DNA from: Rhodobacterales bacterium
GTDB lineage: Bacteria; Pseudomonadota; Alphaproteobacteria; Rhodobacterales; CAZPXZ01
DNA: 64,000 nt
Reading direction: 5' to 3'
Assembly (NCBI GenBank): GCA_965221505.1
Contig: CBDCSI010000001.1
Location: forward strand, 2,197,835-2,261,834
Under the pieces are notes generated by a model. That model ran no database searches and had not been told where the DNA came from. It saw only the letters and a program-made list of their open reading frames with translations. The translations under genes were made by a program, and so were the position numbers. This document shows, piece by piece, positions 3,093 through 61,938 of this stretch. How positions within the stretch are numbered: the first letter of the stretch is position 1; each line of letters begins with the position of its first letter.

Positions 3093-5153
3093 TCAAACGC
3101 CGTCTCGCTGAATATCCTCCAGCCAGGCGCGGGCGAACACGCATCGACCGTTCTCGAACACGTCGAGACGGGCATGAACGCGAAAGTCGGCCTTGTCGCA
3201 GGTCAACTCCAGACGGGTGCGGATACGGACGTCGAGACCCTCGCGCCCGTAGCGGTCCTCACCCTTCAGGAGAAGCCTCGCCGAAAGCGGATCGTCGGGG
3301 TGAATCTCGAAGCGGCGGCGGATTACGTTGCCGCTGTGCCAGCCGCTCCGGTCCATCCGGGTAACCCCGCCGTCCTCCTCATGGACGAAGACGAGAGCGC
3401 CCGTTGCGTGATCCTCCTCGAACCGGGCCACGACCGGCGCGCCCGGGCGCAGGGCGGTGCGCGGGTCGAGCGGCGTCTTCTGCGGCCGAGGCAGCGGCGG
3501 AAGCTGCCCGTCCTCCTCCCGGTCCTCTCGAACGGGGAGCGACAATCGCGATACTCCGGTACGCAGGGTCAGCGTGACCGGCTCCGGCGACGGCCACGCG
3601 ATCGGCCAGAGTCCCGTCGAGAGCGCCAGACGGATGCGGCTGCCCTTCGCGAACCGGTACGCGTTGCCGTTCAGCACTACGGAAACCTCGAACGGTTCTC
3701 CGGGAGTGAGGTGCGTCACCGTCTCGTGACTGTCGTCATGGGTGAGATTGCGCAATCCGAAGCTGACACGATTCACGGCGCCGTCCGAGCGGACCTCCGA
3801 GAGCCGCAGGGCGATCTGAGCGACGGGGCGGTCGCTGGCGAGACGCAGGCGGACGATCGGCATCCCGAAGAACGCCAGGGGCTCCTCCAGCGGTTCGCTA
3901 TCGAAGCAGAGCGACATGGCGTCGTCCGGCCGCTGGTCGGACGGGCTCTCCGGCGCCGCCATTCCGTTGTGGCCCCAGAACGGGTTGGCGCGCCCGACCG
4001 TGGCCGGGGAGCGAAACGAAACGCCGTTCCCGGACTCGGGCGCTTCCCCGAGGCCGCTCCGGTTCAGATACCACTGCCGGTAGCTCTCTTCCGGCGGCGG
4101 CCAGCCGTGCTCGGCGATCCAGTGTCCCGGCACCTCCCGAAGCACCGTCGCCGGCCGGTAGCTGTCGTGCATCCAGGCGCGAATCGTCGGCTCCCGGTCG
4201 ATGCCGGTATCCCGGTCCTTGAGCCACCGGTCCCACCATCGGCAGCTCTCCTGCAGGAACCCCGCCGCCGGTGCCGGAAGCGCCTGGTGGGGATACTGGT
4301 GCCCCCAGGGGCCGATCCAGGCCCGCCTCGGCACGTCGAGCCCCTCCATCAGGCGCAGCGCGGGATCCGTATACGGATCGAGCCAGCCGCCGACCGCAAA
4401 TACGGGACAGGCGATGGCGGAGAAGTCCTCGCAGACCGAGCCGTGTTTCCAGAAGTCGTCCCGGCGCTGGTGCCGGAGCCACTCCAGCACCCAGGGCGGG
4501 CTGTTCTCCATTCGACGGAACCAGGCGTCCCGCCAGCCCTCCCCGAACAGGACCGGATCCGGCGGACGGGCGTTGTGGCCGAACATGGTGAAACACCAAT
4601 TCGGGTTTTCGAGAAGCTGGCACCCGCCCATGGTGTGAATGTCGGTGGCGTATCGGTCGTCGGTCGAACAGACGGTGACGATGGCCTTCAGCGCCGGAGG
4701 ACGCCGCGCGGCGACCTGCAGGCAGTTGAAGCCGCCCCAGCTCTTCCCGAACATGCCCACCCGGCCGGTGCACCAGGGCTGCGCCGCCAGCCAGGCGATT
4801 ACCTCCTCCGCATCGGCCAGTTCCCGTTCGAGATACTCCCCGAGCAGCACCCCGTCCGACTCGCCGCTGCCCCGGAGGTCGACCCGGAAGGACGCGTATC
4901 CCTGCCCGGCGAACCAGGGATGCATCGCCTCGTCCCGCGCCGACGTGCCGTCGCGCTTGCAATACGGAATGTATTCGAGGAGCGCCGGAACCGGGTTCTC
5001 CTCCGCATCTGCCGGCAGCCAGCACCGGTAGGCGAGCCGGGCTCCGTCTGCGAGCGGAATCCAGCCGTGTTCGATCTCGCGGACGGCTCTCGGAAGCGAG
5101 TCCGGATCGACGACGGAACCGTCGTCGTCGACCCCACGCTGCGCCGCAATCAT
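3093..5153 (-). CDS. CocE/NonD family hydrolase (S15 X-Pro dipeptidyl-peptidase-like)
   Basis: This is the C-terminal 686 aa of track ORF 3093..5762. It starts at MIAAQRG (comp. 5153) with GGAGGGAGG 6 nt upstream. It has the GKSWGG serine-nucleophile motif, and the ALLEYIPYCKRDG... and ...WLDPYTD regions are typical of CocE/NonD. The upstream 200 aa of the track ORF is R/G/P-rich junk. Confidence 0.85.
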   Translation of the reverse strand: MIAAQRGVDDDGSVVDPDSLPRAVREIEHGWIPLADGARLAYRCWLPADAEENPVPALLEYIPYCKRDGTSARDEAMHPWFAGQGYASFRVDLRGSGESDGVLLGEYLERELADAEEVIAWLAAQPWCTGRVGMFGKSWGGFNCLQVAARRPPALKAIVTVCSTDDRYATDIHTMGGCQLLENPNWCFTMFGHNARPPDPVLFGEGWRDAWFRRMENSPPWVLEWLRHQRRDDFWKHGSVCEDFSAIACPVFAVGGWLDPYTDPALRLMEGLDVPRRAWIGPWGHQYPHQALPAPAAGFLQESCRWWDRWLKDRDTGIDREPTIRAWMHDSYRPATVLREVPGHWIAEHGWPPPEESYRQWYLNRSGLGEAPESGNGVSFRSPATVGRANPFWGHNGMAAPESPSDQRPDDAMSLCFDSEPLEEPLAFFGMPIVRLRLASDRPVAQIALRLSEVRSDGAVNRVSFGLRNLTHDDSHETVTHLTPGEPFEVSVVLNGNAYRFAKGSRIRLALSTGLWPIAWPSPEPVTLTLRTGVSRLSLPVREDREEDGQLPPLPRPQKTPLDPRTALRPGAPVVARFEEDHATGALVFVHEEDGGVTRMDRSGWHSGNVIRRRFEIHPDDPLSARLLLKGEDRYGREGLDVRIRTRLELTCDKADFRVHARLDVFENGRCVFARAWLEDIQRDGV

Positions 5154-56374: not shown

Positions 56375-57118
56375 ATGGGCGCAACGGAAGTCGGTTTCCT
56401 TGCTGCGTTCGCCGGCGGCGCGCTCAGTTTCCTGTCGCCCTGCGTCCTGCCGCTGGTGCCGCCCTATCTCGCGTATCTCGCCGCCACCGGCGTAAACGAG
56501 ATTCAGGGCGAAACGGCGACGCTCGCGCCGAACCGGCCGCGCGTTCTCCTCTGTGCGCTCGGATTCGTGCTGGGGCTCGGCACGGTGTTCGTCGGACTCG
56601 GCGCCACGGCCTCCGCGTTCGGCAGCTGGCTCGCCGCGCACCGCTACCTCCTCGGCCAGATTTCGGGTGCGGTGATCATTCTGTTCGGACTTCACTTTCT
56701 GGGCGTATTCCGGATCGGCTTCCTACATCGCGACGTACGGTTTGCGACGAACCGTGCCACCGGCGGTCCGATCGGCGCCTACGTCATGGGACTCGCGTTC
56801 GCGTTCGGTTGGACGCCCTGCATCGGCCCCATCCTGGCGAGCATCCTGTTCGTGGCCGCACAGCAGGACGCGGTAGACCAGGCGGTCCTCCTGCTCACGT
56901 TCTACGCGGCCGGCCTCGGAGTTCCGTTTGTCGTCGCGGCCGCCTTCGTCGGCCCGTTCCAGCGATTCCTGATTCGGGTCCGCCCCCATCTGCGCCTGAT
57001 CGAGGCAGCCATGGGGCTCTTTCTGATCGGCGTCGGCGTCGCGTTCCTGACCGGGGTGTTCTCCGAGGCGGCTTTCTGGCTATTGGAGGCTTTTCCCGCG
57101 CTCGGACGAATCGGCTGA
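56375..57118 (+). CDS. ccdA: Cytochrome c biogenesis/thiol-disulfide transfer membrane protein CcdA (DsbD-core family)
   Basis: Track ORF of 247 aa with ...GALSFLSPCVLPLVPPYL... and ...GWTPCIGPIL.... Confidence 0.85.
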   Translation: MGATEVGFLAAFAGGALSFLSPCVLPLVPPYLAYLAATGVNEIQGETATLAPNRPRVLLCALGFVLGLGTVFVGLGATASAFGSWLAAHRYLLGQISGAVIILFGLHFLGVFRIGFLHRDVRFATNRATGGPIGAYVMGLAFAFGWTPCIGPILASILFVAAQQDAVDQAVLLLTFYAAGLGVPFVVAAAFVGPFQRFLIRVRPHLRLIEAAMGLFLIGVGVAFLTGVFSEAAFWLLEAFPALGRIG

Positions 57119-57250
57119 ACCGTACGCTGCGTCGCCGACGCGGCAGCGATCCCCTCCGTGGCCTCCGGCGGCGAACGAAGCGCATGGCCAACGCCGCATC
57201 GGCAGGCATCCGACGAGGCGCGACGGCATGCCCGAACCTGCGGGAGCGGA

Positions 57251-57532
57251 TCAGCGAACCGAAGACCGATCGCTGCCGGCCCAATGCCGATACAATTTCT
57301 CGGAACGCTCGGCGTCGAGAAGTTCCACGGCCCACTCGTTCAACTGCTCGGGCGCCGCTGCCCTGACCTTGGCCGCGACCGTCCTCGGCAGCGTCCCGAA
57401 GCGACCCTTCAGGATCGCGAAGAAAATCTGAAGTCGTCCGTTTCTCTCGCCCTCGGCCCATCCCTTCGCCCATCCCTCGGCCCAGCCTCTGCGCATGCTC
57501 TTCCGTTCGATCCGTTGACGATAGCTTTTCAC
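57251..57532 (-). CDS. Orphan DUF4351-like (Rpn C-terminal domain-like) small protein, 93 aa if started at the GTG
   Basis: Tail of track ORF 57251..58237: VKSYRQRIERKSMRRGWAEGWAKGWAEGERNGRLQIFFAILKGRFGTLPRTVAAKVRAAAPEQLNEWAVELLDAERSEKL.... GTG (comp. 57532) has GAGGAG 9 nt upstream; an alternative ATG lies at comp. 57496. The start is uncertain. Confidence 0.5.
   Translation of the reverse strand: MKSYRQRIERKSMRRGWAEGWAKGWAEGERNGRLQIFFAILKGRFGTLPRTVAAKVRAAAPEQLNEWAVELLDAERSEKLYRHWAGSDRSSVR
57452..57487. repeat. 3 x 12-bp tandem repeat encoding (GWAE/GWAK)3
   Basis: Units read directly: ctcggcccatcc / cttcgcccatcc / ctcggcccagcc. Confidence 0.85.
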
Positions 57533-58303
57533 GATTCGGACTCCTCGCTGACTTGGAGAGTCGAATTTCGTCCGCCGGTATCGGCCGTCTCGCACGCCAT
57601 GCCAAACCTCCTTCGAGCGCCGATACTCTCCGCGGTCAGCCTCTGCCGTCCTCTTCGGAACAAGCCGGTCGCCCCCTTGCCGGCAGTTTCGGACCGGATC
57701 CAGTCCCACTTGCGCCAAACCGACGCTGCAACGGGCCCAAGCCCGATCGGCGCCGCGATTGCGTTCCGGACCGCAGCGCTCAAGGCGTCGGCCGACTGGC
57801 TGCCGGCGGCGTTCGCCGCGCGGGCACACGGGCAAGGAAGCTCGAGCGGCGATCGCGACGATTCCATCCCGATTCCGCCTTTCCGCCCCGGACGTCCCTC
57901 CGTCCGGAGCCATATGCAACATTTGCCTGTTCGCGGCGCGTTCGTCGCAGACGCCGGGCCATTCCCCGAGTTCCGGCTTCCGCCTGCCTCGCCCGTTTCG
58001 AATCGGTCGCAATGCGCCTCGCCTCGGGGAAGCCATCGAACCTTCCGAGGCAAGCCGGCGCCGCGCAGGCGACCGCCGCCGACATCGTACCCGAACGCAG
58101 ATCCGCGCTTCCCCGCCGCAGGAGGGGGTTCGGAGCCAGGATTCCCGCGGGAGACGAAGGGATCGCAGTTCGAGCCGCTCCGACGAGCATCTCCTCTGTC
58201 CCGACACACGATCTCGTCCGACGATCAGACACGGCACACGGCTCGAACCGCACGGGCGAGCGTCCGATCAGGCGCTCGGCACTCCCGAGACTACGGAAGC
58301 GGA

Positions 58304-58696
58304 TCAGTGAACCGAAGACCGGCCGTTGCCGATCCAATGCCGATACAGTCGCAGGGCGCGCTCTTCGTCCAGGAGTTCCACGGCCCATTTGTCCAATTGC
58401 TCGGGCGCCGCCGCTCTGACCTGAGACACGACCGTGTTCGGGAGCCTCCCGAAGCGACCCTTCAGAAGTTCGAGTAACATCCCGACTCTTCCGCTTGTCT
58501 CACCCTTCGCAATGCCCTTGGCAATGCCCTTGCTGATGCCTTTGCTGATGCCCTTGCTGATACCCTGGGACATCCCGATGCGCCTGCTCTTCCGTTCGAT
58601 TCGCTGGCGATAGCTTTCCACGATACGGACTCCTCTCTCCGACTTGGCGCGTCGAACCCCGTCCAACAGCACCGCCCGCCTCCCAGGCAGGTCCAT
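58304..58696 (-). CDS. DUF4351-like C-terminal module of the Rpn-family protein, encoded as a separate ORF
   Basis: Track ORF of 130 aa: MDLPGRRAVLLDGVRRAKSERGVRIVESYRQRIERKSRRIGMSQ(GISK)3(GIAK)2GETSGRVGMLLELLKGRFGRLPNTVVSQVRAAAPEQLDKWAVELLDEERALRL. It is in the same frame as the upstream nuclease ORF, separated only by TAA-ACT. An internal GTG (comp. 58621) has GAGAGGAG upstream. Confidence 0.6.
   Translation of the reverse strand: MDLPGRRAVLLDGVRRAKSERGVRIVESYRQRIERKSRRIGMSQGISKGISKGISKGIAKGIAKGETSGRVGMLLELLKGRFGRLPNTVVSQVRAAAPEQLDKWAVELLDEERALRLYRHWIGNGRSSVH
58511..58570. repeat. 5 x 12-bp tandem repeat encoding (GISK)3(GIAK)2
   Basis: Units read directly: aatgcccttggc / aatgcccttgct / gatgcctttgct / gatgcccttgct / gataccctggga. 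Confidence 0.85.
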
Positions 58697-58699
58697 AGT

Positions 58700-59422
58700 T
58701 TACAGGAGTGCGCGCCGTTCCAGCTCGCTCTCGTACGGGAACGGCGCCAGCGCTCGTGCGACTTCGGCGGCCGTCACGCGTCTGTCCCGACATGCGTAGA
58801 TCATCAGCAGCAGACCGGCCCGAAGTACGGGATCCGCCGCCAGCGCCCGTTCCTTCATGCGGGGAAGATCGCTGAGCAAATACCGGTGCGCGTCCTGCGA
58901 CTTGCCGACCGCGCCGGCGGTCGGAATCAGTTCAGACAGGCTCAGTCCGGCGTTCCAGGGGCGATGGCCATGATACGCCACCAGCGAGAGTACGAGCGGG
59001 ACCTTCCGCGAATTGCGGCCCGCAACCCGAAGTCGAAGCAACGACTGGTAATTCTGGGTACGGACCGCCATCGTCTTGTCGATCGTGGACCGGTGTTCCA
59101 GATGCAACAGCAGCTCCGAACGGCCGTGCCGCACCTTGATTCCCAGCCGATAGACATGGTCGGACACGCGTTGGCCCAACCTCGGCGTCGCGAACCCTTC
59201 CGCCAGGGCCTCCGGGAGCGTGTCGTCCAACTCCTCGACGATCTCGGACGGCAGGTGATGGCGAACGAAGTCGTCTGCGCGTTTCGGATCCTCCAGGAGC
59301 GCCGCGAACCAGGACTCGTGCCGCTTGGGAGCGCGCCTGCGCCTGCGGCGCTGTCGCCGGTCGGGTCGGTCCCGCAGCAGGTCTCTTCGGTCCCGCCCGC
59401 CCGCTCGCGCCCTCCCTCCCAT
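58700..59422 (-). CDS. Rpn-family (YhgA-like, PD-(D/E)xK) recombination-promoting nuclease/putative transposase, nuclease part only (ends at an in-frame TAA)
   Basis: Track ORF 58700..59542. I place the start at MGGRARAGG (comp. 59422), with AAGGGAGGG 7 nt upstream. Family-like blocks: HESWFAALLEDPKRADDFVRHHLP and SDHVYRLGIKVRHGRSELLLHLEHRSTIDKTMAVRTQNY. Confidence 0.7.
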   Translation of the reverse strand: MGGRARAGGRDRRDLLRDRPDRRQRRRRRRAPKRHESWFAALLEDPKRADDFVRHHLPSEIVEELDDTLPEALAEGFATPRLGQRVSDHVYRLGIKVRHGRSELLLHLEHRSTIDKTMAVRTQNYQSLLRLRVAGRNSRKVPLVLSLVAYHGHRPWNAGLSLSELIPTAGAVGKSQDAHRYLLSDLPRMKERALAADPVLRAGLLLMIYACRDRRVTAAEVARALAPFPYESELERRALL

Positions 59423-59580
59423 CGCACACCCTCCCTTCGACGATTCGTTTCCGGACCGCTCGATCGCCCAGTGGCCCGGCGCGCCGACCGGATCGAATGC
59501 CCGGCGCGCGCACTTTCTCGCCGAAACGCCATATCCTGTCAACAGGCAATGGCCACTTCCGCGGAAACTCGGCGCAAGAA

Positions 59581-59720
59581 GACTGTATTCATATCAATAT
59601 AATTTGTTATTTTACAAAAGATTACAAACGTATATTGATATTGTTTATCAGGATACACCGGAGATTCCGGCTTGCAAATTCGAGTCCGATTTTTTACACG
59701 AATCGGGATCTGTACTTGCA
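59581..59720. promoter_or_regulatory. AT-rich island (about 20% G+C over 59581-59650 by my count) upstream of the rpn-like gene; probably promoter/operator DNA
   Basis: It is the only strongly AT-rich stretch I saw in the window. It contains several -35/-10-like hexamers on the minus strand, and a perfect TTGACA lies at comp. 59537-59542 just downstream. Confidence 0.4.
59591..59641. repeat. Perfect 11-bp inverted repeat ATATCAATATA (59591-59601) / TATATTGATAT (59631-59641), 29-bp spacer
   Basis: Read directly and checked by reverse-complementing the right arm. Confidence 0.9.
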
Positions 59721-59967
59721 GGAAACGCCAGAGACGCGGTCGAGATCGGCACCCAAGAGGCGAATCGAGTCGGGCCCGCGCCGAATGCGTGACGAACCGC
59801 GCGAAAGGCGCCGAATCGCGTCGGACTGCGGGCGAGAAAAGACGTTCGTCGCCCGGCCGAATCGCGGACTCGGCGCTCGTTCCGTTCCGGGCGCTTCTCC
59901 CTGGCGAGCTCGGCATGGACGTCCGGGATCGCTACGTCCCATGCGCCGCGACCGGCTCCCGCGGCGG

Positions 59968-61938
59968 CTAGATCGACCTCCCCGCCTCGTGGCCCTCGAA
60001 GACCGCCTCGAGTGCGGTGCGGGCCGCCAGACAGTCGCCGACAGCGGTCCGGGTCGCCCCGTCAGCCGACGCGACGGCGAAGTGCCCGTTGCGCGGCACG
60101 CCCGGGACCGGCGCCACGACCGCGCTGGCGGCAAGTTCGGTCCGCGCGTCGGTTCGGGTCATGTCCGCAAGGACTGCCCGGCCGTCCGAGTGATCGACGA
60201 GCGCGTGATGGCCGACGATCCGCACGTTCTTCTCGCGAAGCCGGTGTCGAAGCGCGAAGGCGCTGTACATGCTGACGTTCCACCCGGGCGTTCCCGACGG
60301 CGCGACGAGAGTCACGGACTTGCCCAGATCGGCCAGGTGTTCGGCCACCGAAACCGCCGACCAGCCGCCGAGACCGTCCACCACGAGCACTTCGTCTCCC
60401 AGCGCTTCCGGGTCGGCCAGCGCAGCCTCAAGGGTCAATGCCGTGCCGCCCGAGCGAAGCCGCTGCCCAGCCGGATCGGCGCCGGTCGCCCAGACTGTCG
60501 CCTCGGCCTCGAACCGGTCGGCGGCAGACGCCTCCGCGTCCAGCCTCACGTCGACGCCGAAGGCCGAAAGGCGCGCTTCCTGACGCGCGAGCAGCCGGCC
60601 GAATTCCCTGCGCAACGGCATGCGCAGCGTCCAGGCCAGCGCCCCGCCCAGCCGTCCGGTGCGCTCGAGGAGGGTCACCGAGTGTCCGCGTTCGGCCGCC
60701 ACGGCGGCGGCCTCCATGCCTGCGGGCCCGCCGCCGATCACGAGCACGCGCTTCGCGCGGCCCCGGGCTACGCGCGACAAGCGCGGCCACGCGGCCTCCC
60801 TCCCTGCGCGCGGGTTCGTCAGACAGGTGATCGGAAGGTTGCGGGCCAGGAAATCCGCGCAGCCCTGGTTGCACCCGATGCAGGGGTTGGCGTCGCCGGC
60901 GCGGCCTTCGGCCGCCTTCCGCACGATTTCCGGGTCGGCGATATGCGCACGCGCCATGCCGACCATGTCGGCTCCGCCGGAGGCGATCATCGCCTCGGCC
61001 TCCGCGACCTGCAGATACCGGCATGCCGTCAACACGCGGGGCCGGGACGGGAGACCTACCAGTGCGCTTCGAATCGCGCGGGTCAGCGGCTCGAACTCTT
61101 CCCGATCGAACGCCATGTCGGCCATCTGCGTCGAGACGGTGTAGCTGCCGTGATAGGCCGAGTGAGAGACGTTGACGAAGTCGACTTGCGCACCCGCCGC
61201 CAGCCCGCGGACGATCGCGCACATGTCGGCCAGAGAGAGGCCGCCCGGCAGGAACTCGTCGGCGCTGATCCGGATTCCGAGCGTCCGGCCGGGGCCGAGG
61301 CGGGCGCGCACCGCGCAAAGGGTCTCGCGGGCGAAGCGCAGGCGTCGGTCCGGCGAGCCGCCGTAGGCGTCTTCGCGCCGGTTCGATGCGGGCGACAGGA
61401 ATTGCTGGATCAGGTGGCCGTGGCCCATCTGGAGTTCGATCCCGTCGAGCCCGGCCTCGATCAGGTTCTCCGCAACGTCGGCATGCGCCTCGACGACCGT
61501 CGCGATCTCGTCCTCGCTCATCGGATGCGGCGGCGGCGCGGTCGCGGACCAGGGGACGGCCGAGGCGGACCAGGCGGGCATCCGGGCGTAGTTGCCGTCG
61601 ATGTGCCGGCCGAGGTGAATGACCTGTCCGAACAGGCGCCCGCCCTCCTCGCGCACCGCATCGGCAATCCGGCGAAAGAGCGGAATCGCGGCCCTGTCGT
61701 ATCCGTTGACCCCTTGCGGGCGGCCGAGGCTGGAGCGGTGAACCCGGATGCCCTCGAAGACGATCAGCCCGGCGCCGCCCGCCGCCCGTTCCCGGTGATA
61801 GGCGAGATGGCGTTCGCCCGGCAGGTAGTTCTCGCCGTAGTTGGTGGTGTGGGCCGGGACGAAGATTCGGTTGCGGATTTCCGTCGCGCCGATGCGGATC
61901 GGGCTGAACGCATGCGGATAACGGGCCTCTCCGGGCAT
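59968..61938 (-). CDS. Old-yellow-enzyme-type NADH:flavin oxidoreductase with a [4Fe-4S] motif and a C-terminal FAD/NAD(P) domain (2,4-dienoyl-CoA reductase-like)
   Basis: Track ORF of 656 aa with ...IRNRIFVPAHTT..., ...GIELQMGHGHLIQQFLSP..N.R.D.YGG, CIGCNQGC and VLVIGGGPAGMEAA. Confidence 0.9.
   Translation of the reverse strand: MPGEARYPHAFSPIRIGATEIRNRIFVPAHTTNYGENYLPGERHLAYHRERAAGGAGLIVFEGIRVHRSSLGRPQGVNGYDRAAIPLFRRIADAVREEGGRLFGQVIHLGRHIDGNYARMPAWSASAVPWSATAPPPHPMSEDEIATVVEAHADVAENLIEAGLDGIELQMGHGHLIQQFLSPASNRREDAYGGSPDRRLRFARETLCAVRARLGPGRTLGIRISADEFLPGGLSLADMCAIVRGLAAGAQVDFVNVSHSAYHGSYTVSTQMADMAFDREEFEPLTRAIRSALVGLPSRPRVLTACRYLQVAEAEAMIASGGADMVGMARAHIADPEIVRKAAEGRAGDANPCIGCNQGCADFLARNLPITCLTNPRAGREAAWPRLSRVARGRAKRVLVIGGGPAGMEAAAVAAERGHSVTLLERTGRLGGALAWTLRMPLRREFGRLLARQEARLSAFGVDVRLDAEASAADRFEAEATVWATGADPAGQRLRSGGTALTLEAALADPEALGDEVLVVDGLGGWSAVSVAEHLADLGKSVTLVAPSGTPGWNVSMYSAFALRHRLREKNVRIVGHHALVDHSDGRAVLADMTRTDARTELAASAVVAPVPGVPRNGHFAVASADGATRTAVGDCLAARTALEAVFEGHEAGRSI

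What the first reader, a model, noticed from the sequence alone, without database searches (positions are those of the whole stretch)
58304..59422. Rpn-family nuclease gene split by a single in-frame TAA exactly at the nuclease/DUF4351 junction, which separates a putative toxin from its putative antitoxin module
The minus strand reads …PYESELERRALL-TAA-ACT-ATG-DLPGRRAVLL…. The YhgA-like PD-(D/E)xK part (58700-59422) and the DUF4351-like C-terminal part (58304-58696) are therefore in the same frame, separated by only one stop codon (comp. 58702-58700) and one sense codon. The downstream part has its own possible initiators: the ATG right after the stop, and an internal GTG (comp. 58621) with GAGAGGAG upstream.

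As I recall published work on E. coli Rpn proteins, the full-length nuclease is toxic and acts in phage defence. Its C-terminal domain is also translated on its own from within the gene and neutralises the long form, and that domain contains a helix built of four-residue repeats whose number varies between strains. Here the C-terminal module carries exactly such an array, (GISK)3(GIAK)2. The locus could be any of:
- an inactivated pseudogene
- a stop-codon read-through arrangement
- a genetically resolved two-gene version of the intragenic toxin/antitoxin.

I am not aware that the two-gene version has been described.
Basis: partly seen in the sequence, partly recalled or inferred. Interest (0 to 1): 0.7.

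Follow-up and report, generated by a model that had tools for sequence, protein, structure and literature searches.

The report
Rpn nuclease gene cut by nonsense mutation
This is a member of the known Rpn nuclease/antitoxin (phage-defence) gene family whose long "toxin" reading frame is cut by a single Tyr-to-stop change, most likely an ordinary recent inactivation that leaves two small antitoxin-type genes behind.

Summary
On the minus strand a YhgA-like/Transposase_31 nuclease ORF (59422-58703) ends at TAA (58702-58700) and continues in frame into a DUF4351 module (58696-58304) carrying (GISK)3(GIAK)2.

The stop sits on a conserved Tyr. All five closest full-length homologues have Tyr there, as do most distant ones, and the one relative with DNA in hand uses TAT. 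There are no indels, and a family HMM runs across the stop as one match. So it is a single-base nonsense change in an otherwise intact rpnLS gene. At least four intact paralogues lie on the same contig.

The ATG after the stop is an inherited Met codon. The real small-protein start is the GTG at 58621, with an SD-N8-start geometry also seen in a relative.

This is the rpnSs (ypaA-type) arrangement already published by Zhong et al. 2023.

About a quarter of family representatives are truncated, at positions spread along the nuclease. Published RpnS acts by binding the C-terminal domain, which the truncated product lacks.

Best reading: a recent toxin pseudogene with orphan antitoxin genes. A sequencing error or a functional split cannot be excluded, because no orthologues or reads are available.

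The parts
58703..59422 (-). N-terminal part of the rpn gene: 240 codons encoding the YhgA-like PD-(D/E)xK nuclease (Transposase_31), annotated in the source record as a 240-aa protein (P0001)
   Evidence: Pfam PF04754 at E=1.6e-22. The exact 240-aa product is in the NCBI/ENA-derived protein collection. All family-invariant residues are present: D88, E109-H110-x-S112, R121, Y150-H151-G152, W156, D185. GC by codon position is coding-like at 0.74/0.49/0.79.
58700..58702 (-). In-frame TAA replacing a conserved Tyr codon
   Evidence: The aligned column is Tyr in P0002, P0003, P0006, P0010, P0011 and P0004 and in most distant homologues. In the full-length relative on L009 the codon is TAT. A family HMM matches 59338-58331 as one continuous hit across the stop.
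58694..58696 (-). ATG four nt after the stop; an inherited Met codon and a possible fortuitous re-initiation site
   Evidence: The same column is Met in paralogue P0002 and Ile in P0003. There is no SD upstream. The 130-aa product is absent from the source-derived protein collection.
58630..58637 (-). Shine-Dalgarno-like GAGAGGAG, 8 nt upstream of the internal GTG
   Evidence: The same SD-N8-start geometry occurs in copy 2 (GAGGAG-N8-GTG) and in L009 (GGGGAG-N8-ATG).
58304..58621 (-). RpnS-type small ORF (GTG start, 105 codons plus stop): long-helix region with tetrad repeats followed by DUF4351
   Evidence: The start column is V(GTG)/M/M/V(GTG) and M/V/L across the family. The repeats begin at residue 20, inside the published window of 8-20 residues after the initiator. 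DUF4351 match. DNA homology with copy 2 becomes strong just upstream of the SD.
58504..58563 (-). Five 12-nt tandem units encoding (GISK)3(GIAK)2
57251..57532 (-). Second, stand-alone DUF4351 gene (rpnSs/ypaA-type), 93 aa with a GTG start, carrying GWAE-GWAK-GWAE (3 tetrads)
   Evidence: tblastn gives 58% identity to the copy-1 C part, E=3e-37. DUF4351 scores 25.0 bits. The exact 93-aa product from this GTG is annotated in the source (P0007). The family HMM matches only positions 232-319. dN/dS against copy 1 is 0.51.
57541..57546 (-). GAGGAG Shine-Dalgarno sequence, 8 nt upstream of the copy-2 GTG
57450..57484 (-). 12-nt tandem units of copy 2 (about 3 copies)
58248..58688 (.). Duplicated segment (copy 1), 70% identical at DNA level to 57194-57597. 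It includes about 55-60 nt 3' of the stop codon.
   Evidence: blastn self-comparison and alignment A1.
57598..58247 (.). Spacer of about 650 bp between the two DUF4351 copies, with no recognisable gene
   Evidence: GC by codon position is flat in every frame. There is no nuclease remnant by HMM, no Rfam match, and none of the five ORFs tested is annotated.

Best explanation
The locus is an Rpn (YhgA-like) nuclease/antitoxin unit of the published rpnLS + rpnSs type. It has one long gene (nuclease domain, linker, tetrad-repeat helix, DUF4351), with an internal SD+GTG that makes the short RpnS antitoxin. About 0.8 kb downstream is a duplicated stand-alone small gene (rpnSs).

In this copy a single third-position change turned a conserved Tyr codon (TAY) into TAA, 26 codons upstream of the internal start. 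Translation from ATG 59422 therefore ends after 240 residues. The product is a nuclease domain without the C-terminal dimerisation and antitoxin-binding domain. By analogy with tail-less RpnD, it should be strongly attenuated and no longer controllable by RpnS.

The RpnS ORF (from GTG 58621, 5 tetrads) and the rpnSs ORF (from GTG 57532, 3 tetrads) remain intact and can still be made. So this is a recently inactivated toxin gene with surviving orphan antitoxin-type genes, one decaying copy in a multi-copy family.

Shown: the anatomy, the homology, the Tyr-to-stop change, the intact paralogues, the conserved internal start geometry, and frequent truncation in the family. Inferred: that the change is real rather than a base-call error, that the truncated protein has lost most of its function, and that the small proteins are expressed.
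For: - Domain calls: PF04754 at 1.6e-22 and PF14261 for both small modules.
- The stop column is Tyr in the five closest homologues and most distant ones, with no indels. The codon is TAT in the relative on L009.
- A family HMM gives one continuous match, HMM 3-319, across the stop.
- Intact full-length paralogues P0002, P0003, P0006 and P0011 are on the same 2.79-Mb contig, and P0160 and P0161 on a 1.75-Mb contig.
- The Met after the stop is ancestral.
- SD-N8-start is conserved in copy 1, copy 2 and L009, and the start column is M/V/L. The source annotation starts copy 2 at that GTG.
- Truncation is common and not junction-specific. About 40 of 149 cluster representatives end before the internal start, spread over HMM 135-242, and many have frameshift-like tails. 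Concrete disrupted relatives are L014, L012/13 and L010/11.
- Literature: RpnS binds RpnL through the shared C-terminal domain, and a repeat-number mismatch abolishes neutralisation. Clones of RpnP2L* (RpnS start mutated) made behind the native promoter all carried additional inactivating mutations. rpnSs genes downstream of rpn genes are described (PMC10400941). RpnD lacking its tail is much less active (PMC5350276).
- In the AF2 model of P0002 the Tyr lies inside a helix (215-225), not in a loose linker.
Against: - There is no second disabling lesion in either half: all invariant residues and the frame are intact. Decay, if real, is very recent, and a functional state cannot be excluded.
- No orthologue of this particular copy exists in any collection searched, so polymorphism of the stop could not be examined.
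- Raw reads are unavailable, so a base-call error cannot be excluded.
- Other relatives also separate an intact nuclease part from an intact RpnS ORF. The L012/13 allele is seen on 7 contigs, which could hint at a tolerated or useful split state.
- Tail-less RpnD was 'not completely dead'.
Confidence: 0.6

Rival explanations
1. Sequencing or assembly error. The true codon is TAT/TAC and the locus is a normal intact rpnLS gene (372 codons) with a downstream rpnSs gene.
For: Everything except one base looks like an intact gene: a continuous HMM match, all invariant residues and no indels. The stop is one substitution away from the conserved Tyr codon.
Against: Neighbouring genes show full-length Pfam profile coverage with no sign of a sloppy assembly. 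The assembly resolves 95%-identical paralogues on one 2.79-Mb contig. Single-base substitutions are rarer assembly errors than indels (general knowledge). Real truncated alleles are frequent in this family.
Confidence: 0.12
2. A functional, genetically resolved system. A stand-alone nuclease (240 aa) is controlled in trans by separately translated DUF4351 proteins, made from the ATG at 58696 by termination-reinitiation and/or from the GTG at 58621, plus copy 2. This would be a two- or three-gene version of the intragenic Rpn toxin-antitoxin.
For: Both halves are intact. TAA-ACT-ATG is a spacing compatible with translational coupling (general knowledge). Relatives exist with an intact nuclease ORF and a separate intact RpnS ORF, such as L012/13 on 7 contigs. 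Tail-less RpnD keeps some activity. Koonin's commentary notes that toxin and antitoxin can be decoupled.
Against: The published mechanism needs the C-terminal domain in the long protein for RpnS to bind, forming a 2L:2S complex with repeat-number matching. The truncated product lacks that domain. The stop destroys a conserved Tyr within a predicted helix instead of falling in a linker. The Met codon is ancestral and has no SD. All six or more paralogues keep the single-ORF form. Truncations in the family are spread along the nuclease with no junction preference. The split relatives arose by different lesions (nonsense, frameshift, deletion), which looks like decay and not a conserved architecture. 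The two small proteins differ in repeat number, 5 against 3.
Confidence: 0.12
3. Programmed stop-codon read-through. A fraction of ribosomes decode TAA and produce full-length RpnL at a low, safe level.
For: The frame is preserved, and a low toxin dose would be biologically sensible (inference only).
Against: No efficient UAA read-through mechanism is established in bacteria (general knowledge). The RNA around and downstream of the stop folds no better than shuffles, z=+0.38. TAA is also used as an ordinary stop in the window: 1 of 28 strong ORFs. The paralogues have a plain Tyr codon.
Confidence: 0.03

Closest known systems
E. coli rpnE-ypaA (rpnE_LS + rpnE_Ss), and rpnC with downstream rpnC_Ss (Zhong et al., PNAS 2023, PMC10400941)
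   Same: A YhgA-like nuclease gene with an internal start for a small C-terminal protein. A duplicated stand-alone small DUF4351 gene lies downstream on the same strand and is closest in sequence to its own upstream partner. The small proteins carry four-residue repeats whose number varies.
   Different: Here the long reading frame is interrupted by TAA upstream of the internal start. The organism is a high-GC (about 69%) bacterium, and the proteins are only distantly related to the E. coli ones (NCBIfam RpnA model at E of about 1e-6, far below its cut-off). The two small copies differ in repeat number (5 against 3) and are 58% identical.
RpnA / RpnP2 LS intragenic toxin-antitoxin and phage-defence systems
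   Same: The domain order is the same. The catalytic-core residues align (RpnA D63/E82/R94/D165 correspond to D88/E109/R121/D185 here). There is an SD plus internal initiator, and the repeats start within 20 residues of that initiator.
   Different: In this copy no full-length RpnL can be made. The column of RpnA Q84 is Arg (LEHRS). That column varies between Q, H and R in this clade, and it is also Arg in the intact P0161. No function has been tested.
RpnD lacking its last 45 residues (Kingston et al., J Bacteriol 2017, PMC5350276)
   Same: A YhgA-like nuclease without its variable C-terminal tail. It is the only experimental analogue of the 240-aa product.
   Different: It is an engineered E. 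coli construct. The truncation here is larger (132 codons) and removes the whole linker, the helix and the DUF4351 module.
Decayed toxin-antitoxin loci with orphan antitoxins (general type II TA biology)
   Same: The toxin is inactivated by a point lesion while the antitoxin ORFs stay intact. A multi-copy family contains some degenerate members.
   Different: The antitoxin here is a piece of the toxin gene itself, so any lesion upstream of the internal start automatically produces a two-ORF appearance.

Membership tests
Rpn / YhgA-like nucleases (Pfam PF04754 Transposase_31, COG5464) | N-terminal Transposase_31 domain above the curated threshold | tested here: met
   80.6 bits against a cut-off of 21, E=1.6e-22, profile positions 2-178 of 203.
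Rpn / YhgA-like nucleases | Match to NCBIfam TIGR01784 (Rpn family recombination-promoting nuclease/putative transposase) at its cut-off | tested here: not met
   11.9 bits for the N part and 17.5 bits for the read-through product, against a cut-off of 52.1. The RpnA equivalog model scores 29 bits against 583. This is a divergent subfamily, so membership rests on Pfam and the alignment.
Rpn / YhgA-like nucleases | PD-(D/E)xK core residues shown to be essential in RpnA (D63, E82, R94) and the conserved acidic motif (D165) | tested here: met
   D88, E109, R121 and D185 are present and invariant or nearly so in alignment A4. The residue roles come from PMC5350276. The Q84 column is Arg here and is variable in the clade, so it is inconclusive on its own.
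RpnL/RpnS intragenic toxin-antitoxin (Zhong et al. 2023) | Nuclease domain and C-terminal variable domain in one uninterrupted ORF (RpnL) | tested here: not met
   TAA at 58702-58700. The feature is met in paralogues P0002, P0003, P0006, P0011, P0160 and P0161.
RpnL/RpnS intragenic toxin-antitoxin | Internal translation start with a ribosome-binding site giving a small C-terminal protein | tested here: inconclusive
   The sequence features are present and conserved: SD-N8-GTG/ATG in copy 1, copy 2 and L009, and a start-capable codon in that column across the family. Translation itself cannot be tested with these tools.
RpnL/RpnS intragenic toxin-antitoxin | Four-residue repeats beginning 8-20 residues after the RpnS initiator, with the number varying between close relatives | tested here: met
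   The repeats start at residue 20 counted from GTG 58621, as 12-nt tandem units. The count differs between 91-96% identical pairs: P0003, P0161 and P0006 have about 1, 2 and 3, and P0011 and P0160 have 2 and 3.
RpnL/RpnS intragenic toxin-antitoxin | RpnS fold: a long first helix plus a compact three-helix bundle (PDB 7TH0) | tested here: inconclusive
   The AF2 model of paralogue P0002 shows long helices 244-306 followed by three short helices 311-345, but confidence is moderate or low (mean pLDDT 67.5, below 50 over residues 261-289). There is no PDB hit by sequence or by Foldseek.
RpnL/RpnS intragenic toxin-antitoxin | Toxicity of the long form, neutralisation by the short form, and phage protection | not testable with these tools
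   This needs expression and phage assays.
rpnSs / stand-alone DUF4351 genes (ypaA-type) | A separate small gene downstream of an rpn gene, homologous to that gene's own C-terminal module, matching PF14261 | tested here: met
   Gene at 57532-57251: 58% amino-acid and 70% nucleotide identity to copy 1, PF14261 at 25.0 bits against a cut-off of 25, annotated in the source as the 93-aa P0007, with no nuclease remnant upstream.
Defence-island association | Neighbouring known defence genes | tested here: not met
   The flanking genes are a DsbD-like membrane protein, an OYE-type flavin reductase, acyl-CoA carboxylase, BCKDH E1 and similar. There are no PADLOC hits for the Rpn pieces.

The most novel reading that the evidence does not exclude
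The split is not decay but a tolerated or selected state. A stand-alone YhgA-like nuclease domain works together with separately encoded RpnS-type proteins, the one immediately downstream possibly made by termination-reinitiation at TAA-ACT-ATG. This would be a resolved multi-gene form of the intragenic Rpn toxin-antitoxin that recurs in the family (window; L012/13 on 7 contigs; L014). It would imply an RpnS-nuclease interaction that does not need the shared C-terminal domain.
Probability: 0.1. Interest if true: 0.6.

Novelty: new member of a known kind. Interest (0 to 1): 0.22.

Why it matters
If the favoured reading is right, the finding has little consequence. It is a nonsense allele of one copy in a multi-copy Rpn family, in a locus whose architecture (rpnLS plus downstream rpnSs) is already published. 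It is mildly useful as an annotation lesson. Any lesion upstream of the internal start of a gene-within-a-gene produces what looks like a toxin gene plus an antitoxin gene, and about a quarter of family representatives look truncated.

The locus also extends three published features to a distant high-GC lineage: the conserved internal start geometry, the tetrad-repeat variation between near-identical copies, and the rpnSs duplication. Only if the split proved functional would it bear on an open question, namely how RpnS controls the nuclease.

Tried and rejected
**Searches that led nowhere**
- **Orthologues of this copy, to see whether the stop is conserved.** The genome-contig scan found only one distant Planctomycetaceae MAG hit. 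The metagenome scan found relatives of only 25-29% identity. The exhaustive representative search found a nearest non-self hit at 47%. The source genome itself is not retrievable: look-ups of P0001-3, P0010-11 and P0161 were not on record.
- **PDB.** The sequence search with RpnS gave 0 hits. Foldseek of the P0002 model against the PDB gave nothing at E<=0.001; the weak top hits are Cap4 and MspJI nucleases.
- **Rfam** on 56900-60100: only chance-level hits.
- **Sigma-70 promoter and terminator scan:** no promoter, and nothing useful on the minus strand.
- **PADLOC:** no meaningful hits.
- **Supplementary Dataset S1 of the PNAS paper** is not held.
- **Later literature:** the library holds no later paper on split Rpn systems.
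- **The 3' conserved flanks** of both small genes have no unusual RNA structure.

**Ideas tested and rejected**
- **A decayed nuclease domain in the spacer upstream of copy 2** (which would mean tandem whole-gene duplication). No HMM signal in any frame.
- **A lesion hot-spot at the nuclease/RpnS junction.** I suspected this after finding L014, L012/13 and L010/11. It was rejected once all 149 representatives were placed on HMM coordinates and the truncation ends proved to be spread out.
- **A read-through-promoting RNA structure.** z=+0.38.
- **The ATG at 58696 as an evolved start codon.** It is an ancestral Met with no SD.
Full report
**1. The observation**

The minus strand reads ...PYESELERRALL-TAA-ACT-ATG-DLPGRRAVLL..., with the TAA at 58702-58700 and the ATG at 58696-58694.
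- The upstream 240 codons run from ATG 59422, which has GGAGGG 6 nt upstream. They match Pfam Transposase_31/YhgA-like at E=1.6e-22.
- The downstream 130 codons (58696-58304) match DUF4351 just above its cut-off.
- The GTG at 58621 is preceded by GAGAGGAG and an 8-nt spacer.
- (GISK)3(GIAK)2 is encoded by five 12-nt tandem units at 58563-58504.

**2.

A second DUF4351 module lies about 0.8 kb downstream on the same strand.
- tblastn with the C part hits 57559-57257 at 58% identity, E=3e-37. DNA segments 58248-58688 and 57194-57597 are 70% identical.
- In the DNA alignment, strong similarity begins just upstream of a shared SD-N8-GTG (GAGGAG-TCCGAATC-GTG at 57546-57530) and continues about 60 nt past both stop codons.
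- The 93-aa product from GTG 57532 (57532-57251, with GWAE-GWAK-GWAE) is annotated in the source records as P0007.
- No form of the copy-1 C part, and no spacer ORF, is annotated. A neighbouring control gene was found by the same look-up.
- A family HMM searched against six-frame translations finds only the C-terminal third (HMM 232-319) at copy 2, and no nuclease remnant in the spacer.
- The spacer (57598-58247) has flat GC at all codon positions and no Rfam match.
- dN/dS between the two small ORFs is 0.51.

**3. What is known**

From Zhong et al. 2023 (PMC10400941) and Koonin's commentary (PMC10400984), read:
- Rpn genes encode a toxic long nuclease (RpnL) and, from an internal start, a small C-terminal protein (RpnS).
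- RpnS binds RpnL through the shared C-terminal domain, forming a complex of two L and two S subunits.
- Four-residue repeats begin 8-20 residues after the RpnS initiator, and their number varies between strains.
- Neutralisation fails when repeat numbers differ.
- RpnS can also be encoded as a separate gene annotated DUF4351. Examples are ypaA/rpnE_Ss downstream of rpnE, and rpnC_Ss.
- Clones of RpnP2L* (the RpnS start mutated) made behind its native promoter all carried additional inactivating mutations.

From Kingston et al. 2017 (PMC5350276):
- RpnD without its last 45 residues is much less active but not dead.
- RpnA D63, E82 and R94 are needed for activity.

So the window's overall layout, an rpn gene plus a downstream stand-alone DUF4351 gene, is the published rpnLS + rpnSs arrangement. 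Counting from GTG 58621, the repeats start at residue 20, inside the published window. Counting from ATG 58696 they would start at residue 45.

**4. Nature of the stop**

- The protein search returned the exact 240-aa N part (P0001) and intact full-length paralogues on the same 2.79-Mb contig: P0002 (354 aa, 51%), P0003 (327 aa), its 95%-identical cluster mate P0006, and P0011. P0160 and P0161 lie on a 1.75-Mb contig.
- In alignments the TAA column is Tyr in all five closest homologues and in most of 27 family members. There are no indels around it.
- The family HMM covers 59338-58331 (HMM 3-319) as one hit across the stop.
- On L009, the only relative for which DNA could be fetched, the codon is TAT (TCG TTG GCG TAT ATC).
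- One third-position substitution therefore explains the stop.
- The Met right after it is also Met in P0002, so the ATG is inherited.
- In an AlphaFold model of P0002 (mean pLDDT 67.5), the Tyr (residue 223) lies inside helix 215-225, and the internal-start Met (residue 250) lies near the start of the long helix 244-274.
- About 15% of possible one-step nonsense changes in the ORF fall between the end of the Pfam match and the internal start, so the position is unremarkable.

**5. State of the two halves**

- All family-invariant residues of the nuclease part are present: D88, E109-H110-x-S112, R121, Y150-H151-G152, W156, D185.
- The column of RpnA Q84 is Arg. It varies between Q, H and R in this clade and is Arg in the intact P0161.
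- Both halves have coding-like GC by codon position.
- No second lesion exists, so the change is recent, or it is an error.

**6. The internal start**

- SD-N8-start is found in copy 1 (GAGAGGAG-N8-GTG), copy 2 (GAGGAG-N8-GTG) and L009 (GGGGAG-N8-ATG).
- The aligned column is M, V or L throughout the family.
- Near-identical pairs differ in tetrad number. P0003, P0161 and P0006 have about 1, 2 and 3. P0011 and P0160 have 2 and 3. This reproduces the published hypervariability in this lineage.

**7. Is a split state recurrent?**

Some short relatives did look split at the same place.
- L014 has an in-frame TGA between the Tyr column and the internal start, with the HMM continuous over 4-316.
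- L012/L013 (P0030, on 7 contigs) have a deletion of about 20 codons plus a frameshift. A 222-aa nuclease ORF overlaps an intact 73-aa RpnS ORF.
- L010/L011 are frameshifted just after the Tyr.

I had picked these by their length, so I then placed all 149 top representatives on HMM coordinates.
- 97 reach the end of the C-terminal module.
- About 40 stop before the internal start, with ends spread over HMM 135-167 (10), 173-206 (17) and 211-242 (13). Many have long non-homologous tails.

Truncation is therefore common and not junction-specific. Some cases may be contig ends. The lesions are of different kinds, which looks like decay and not a conserved architecture.

**8. Other tests**

- The RNA around the stop folds no better than shuffles, z=+0.38.
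- TAA is also used as an ordinary stop in the window.
- The flanks are metabolic genes, not a defence island, and there are no PADLOC hits.
- The rpn segment has lower GC (0.62-0.66) than its flanks (about 0.70) and an AT-richer upstream region. This is compatible with horizontal acquisition.
- No orthologue of this copy was found anywhere, so conservation of the stop cannot be assessed.

**9. Verdict**

- **Most likely (about 0.6):** a real, recent Tyr-to-stop mutation has inactivated the long toxin form of one copy in a multi-copy Rpn family. The RpnS ORF and the rpnSs gene remain intact.
- **A base-call error (about 0.12):** cannot be excluded without reads.
- **A functional two-gene split (about 0.12):** conflicts with the published binding mechanism and has no positive evidence beyond the intactness of both halves and a few similarly split relatives.
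- **Programmed read-through (about 0.03):** unsupported.

The locus is a new member of a known kind, and interest is low.

Noticed in passing
window 57598-58247: The spacer of about 650 bp between the two DUF4351 copies has no coding signature, no Rfam hit and no annotated CDS. Its origin and role are unknown.
   Followed up: partly
window 57530-57600 (minus strand): A 23-codon mini-ORF starts at ATG 57600, preceded by AAGGAGG. It ends with a TGA that overlaps the GTG start of the copy-2 small gene (GTGA), which could be translational coupling or could be chance.
   Followed up: no
window 57150-59970: The rpn segment has lower GC (0.62-0.66, falling to 0.55 at 59400-59800) than the flanking metabolic genes (about 0.70-0.76). 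This suggests a horizontally acquired insert between a DsbD-like gene and an OYE-type flavin reductase gene.
   Followed up: partly
window 58304-58696: The source-derived protein collection holds the 240-aa N part and the 93-aa copy-2 product. It holds no product for the copy-1 C-terminal ORF in any of six start forms tested, so this RpnS-type ORF appears to be unannotated.
   Followed up: yes
L004 1324-1920 and 2980-3939 (also L007, L008): A full-length rpn gene (319 aa) sits next to a 198-aa internally deleted copy. In the short copy HMM positions 1-111 are joined directly to 235-318, apparently by deletion between two LLRYL motifs.
   Followed up: partly
L012 2501-3347 (also L013): This rpn relative has a deletion of about 20 codons plus a frameshift. 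A 222-aa nuclease ORF overlaps an intact 73-aa RpnS ORF by 44 nt. The nuclease ORF's product (P0030) is seen on 7 contigs from different samples.
   Followed up: partly
L014 2501-3445: This rpn relative has an in-frame TGA (3224-3226) where relative P0013 has Arg, between the conserved Tyr and the internal start. It lies next to an IS110-family transposase gene.
   Followed up: partly
L010 and L011 (ends of contigs): Two independent contigs carrying the same frameshifted rpn copy both end about 55 nt after its stop, close to where the tetrad-repeat region would begin. This suggests that these repeats break short-read assemblies.
   Followed up: no
paralogues P0003/P0006/P0161 and P0011/P0160: Copies that are 91-96% identical differ in the number of four-residue repeats (about 1, 2 and 3; and 2 and 3). 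The published repeat hypervariability therefore also holds in this distant high-GC lineage.
   Followed up: yes
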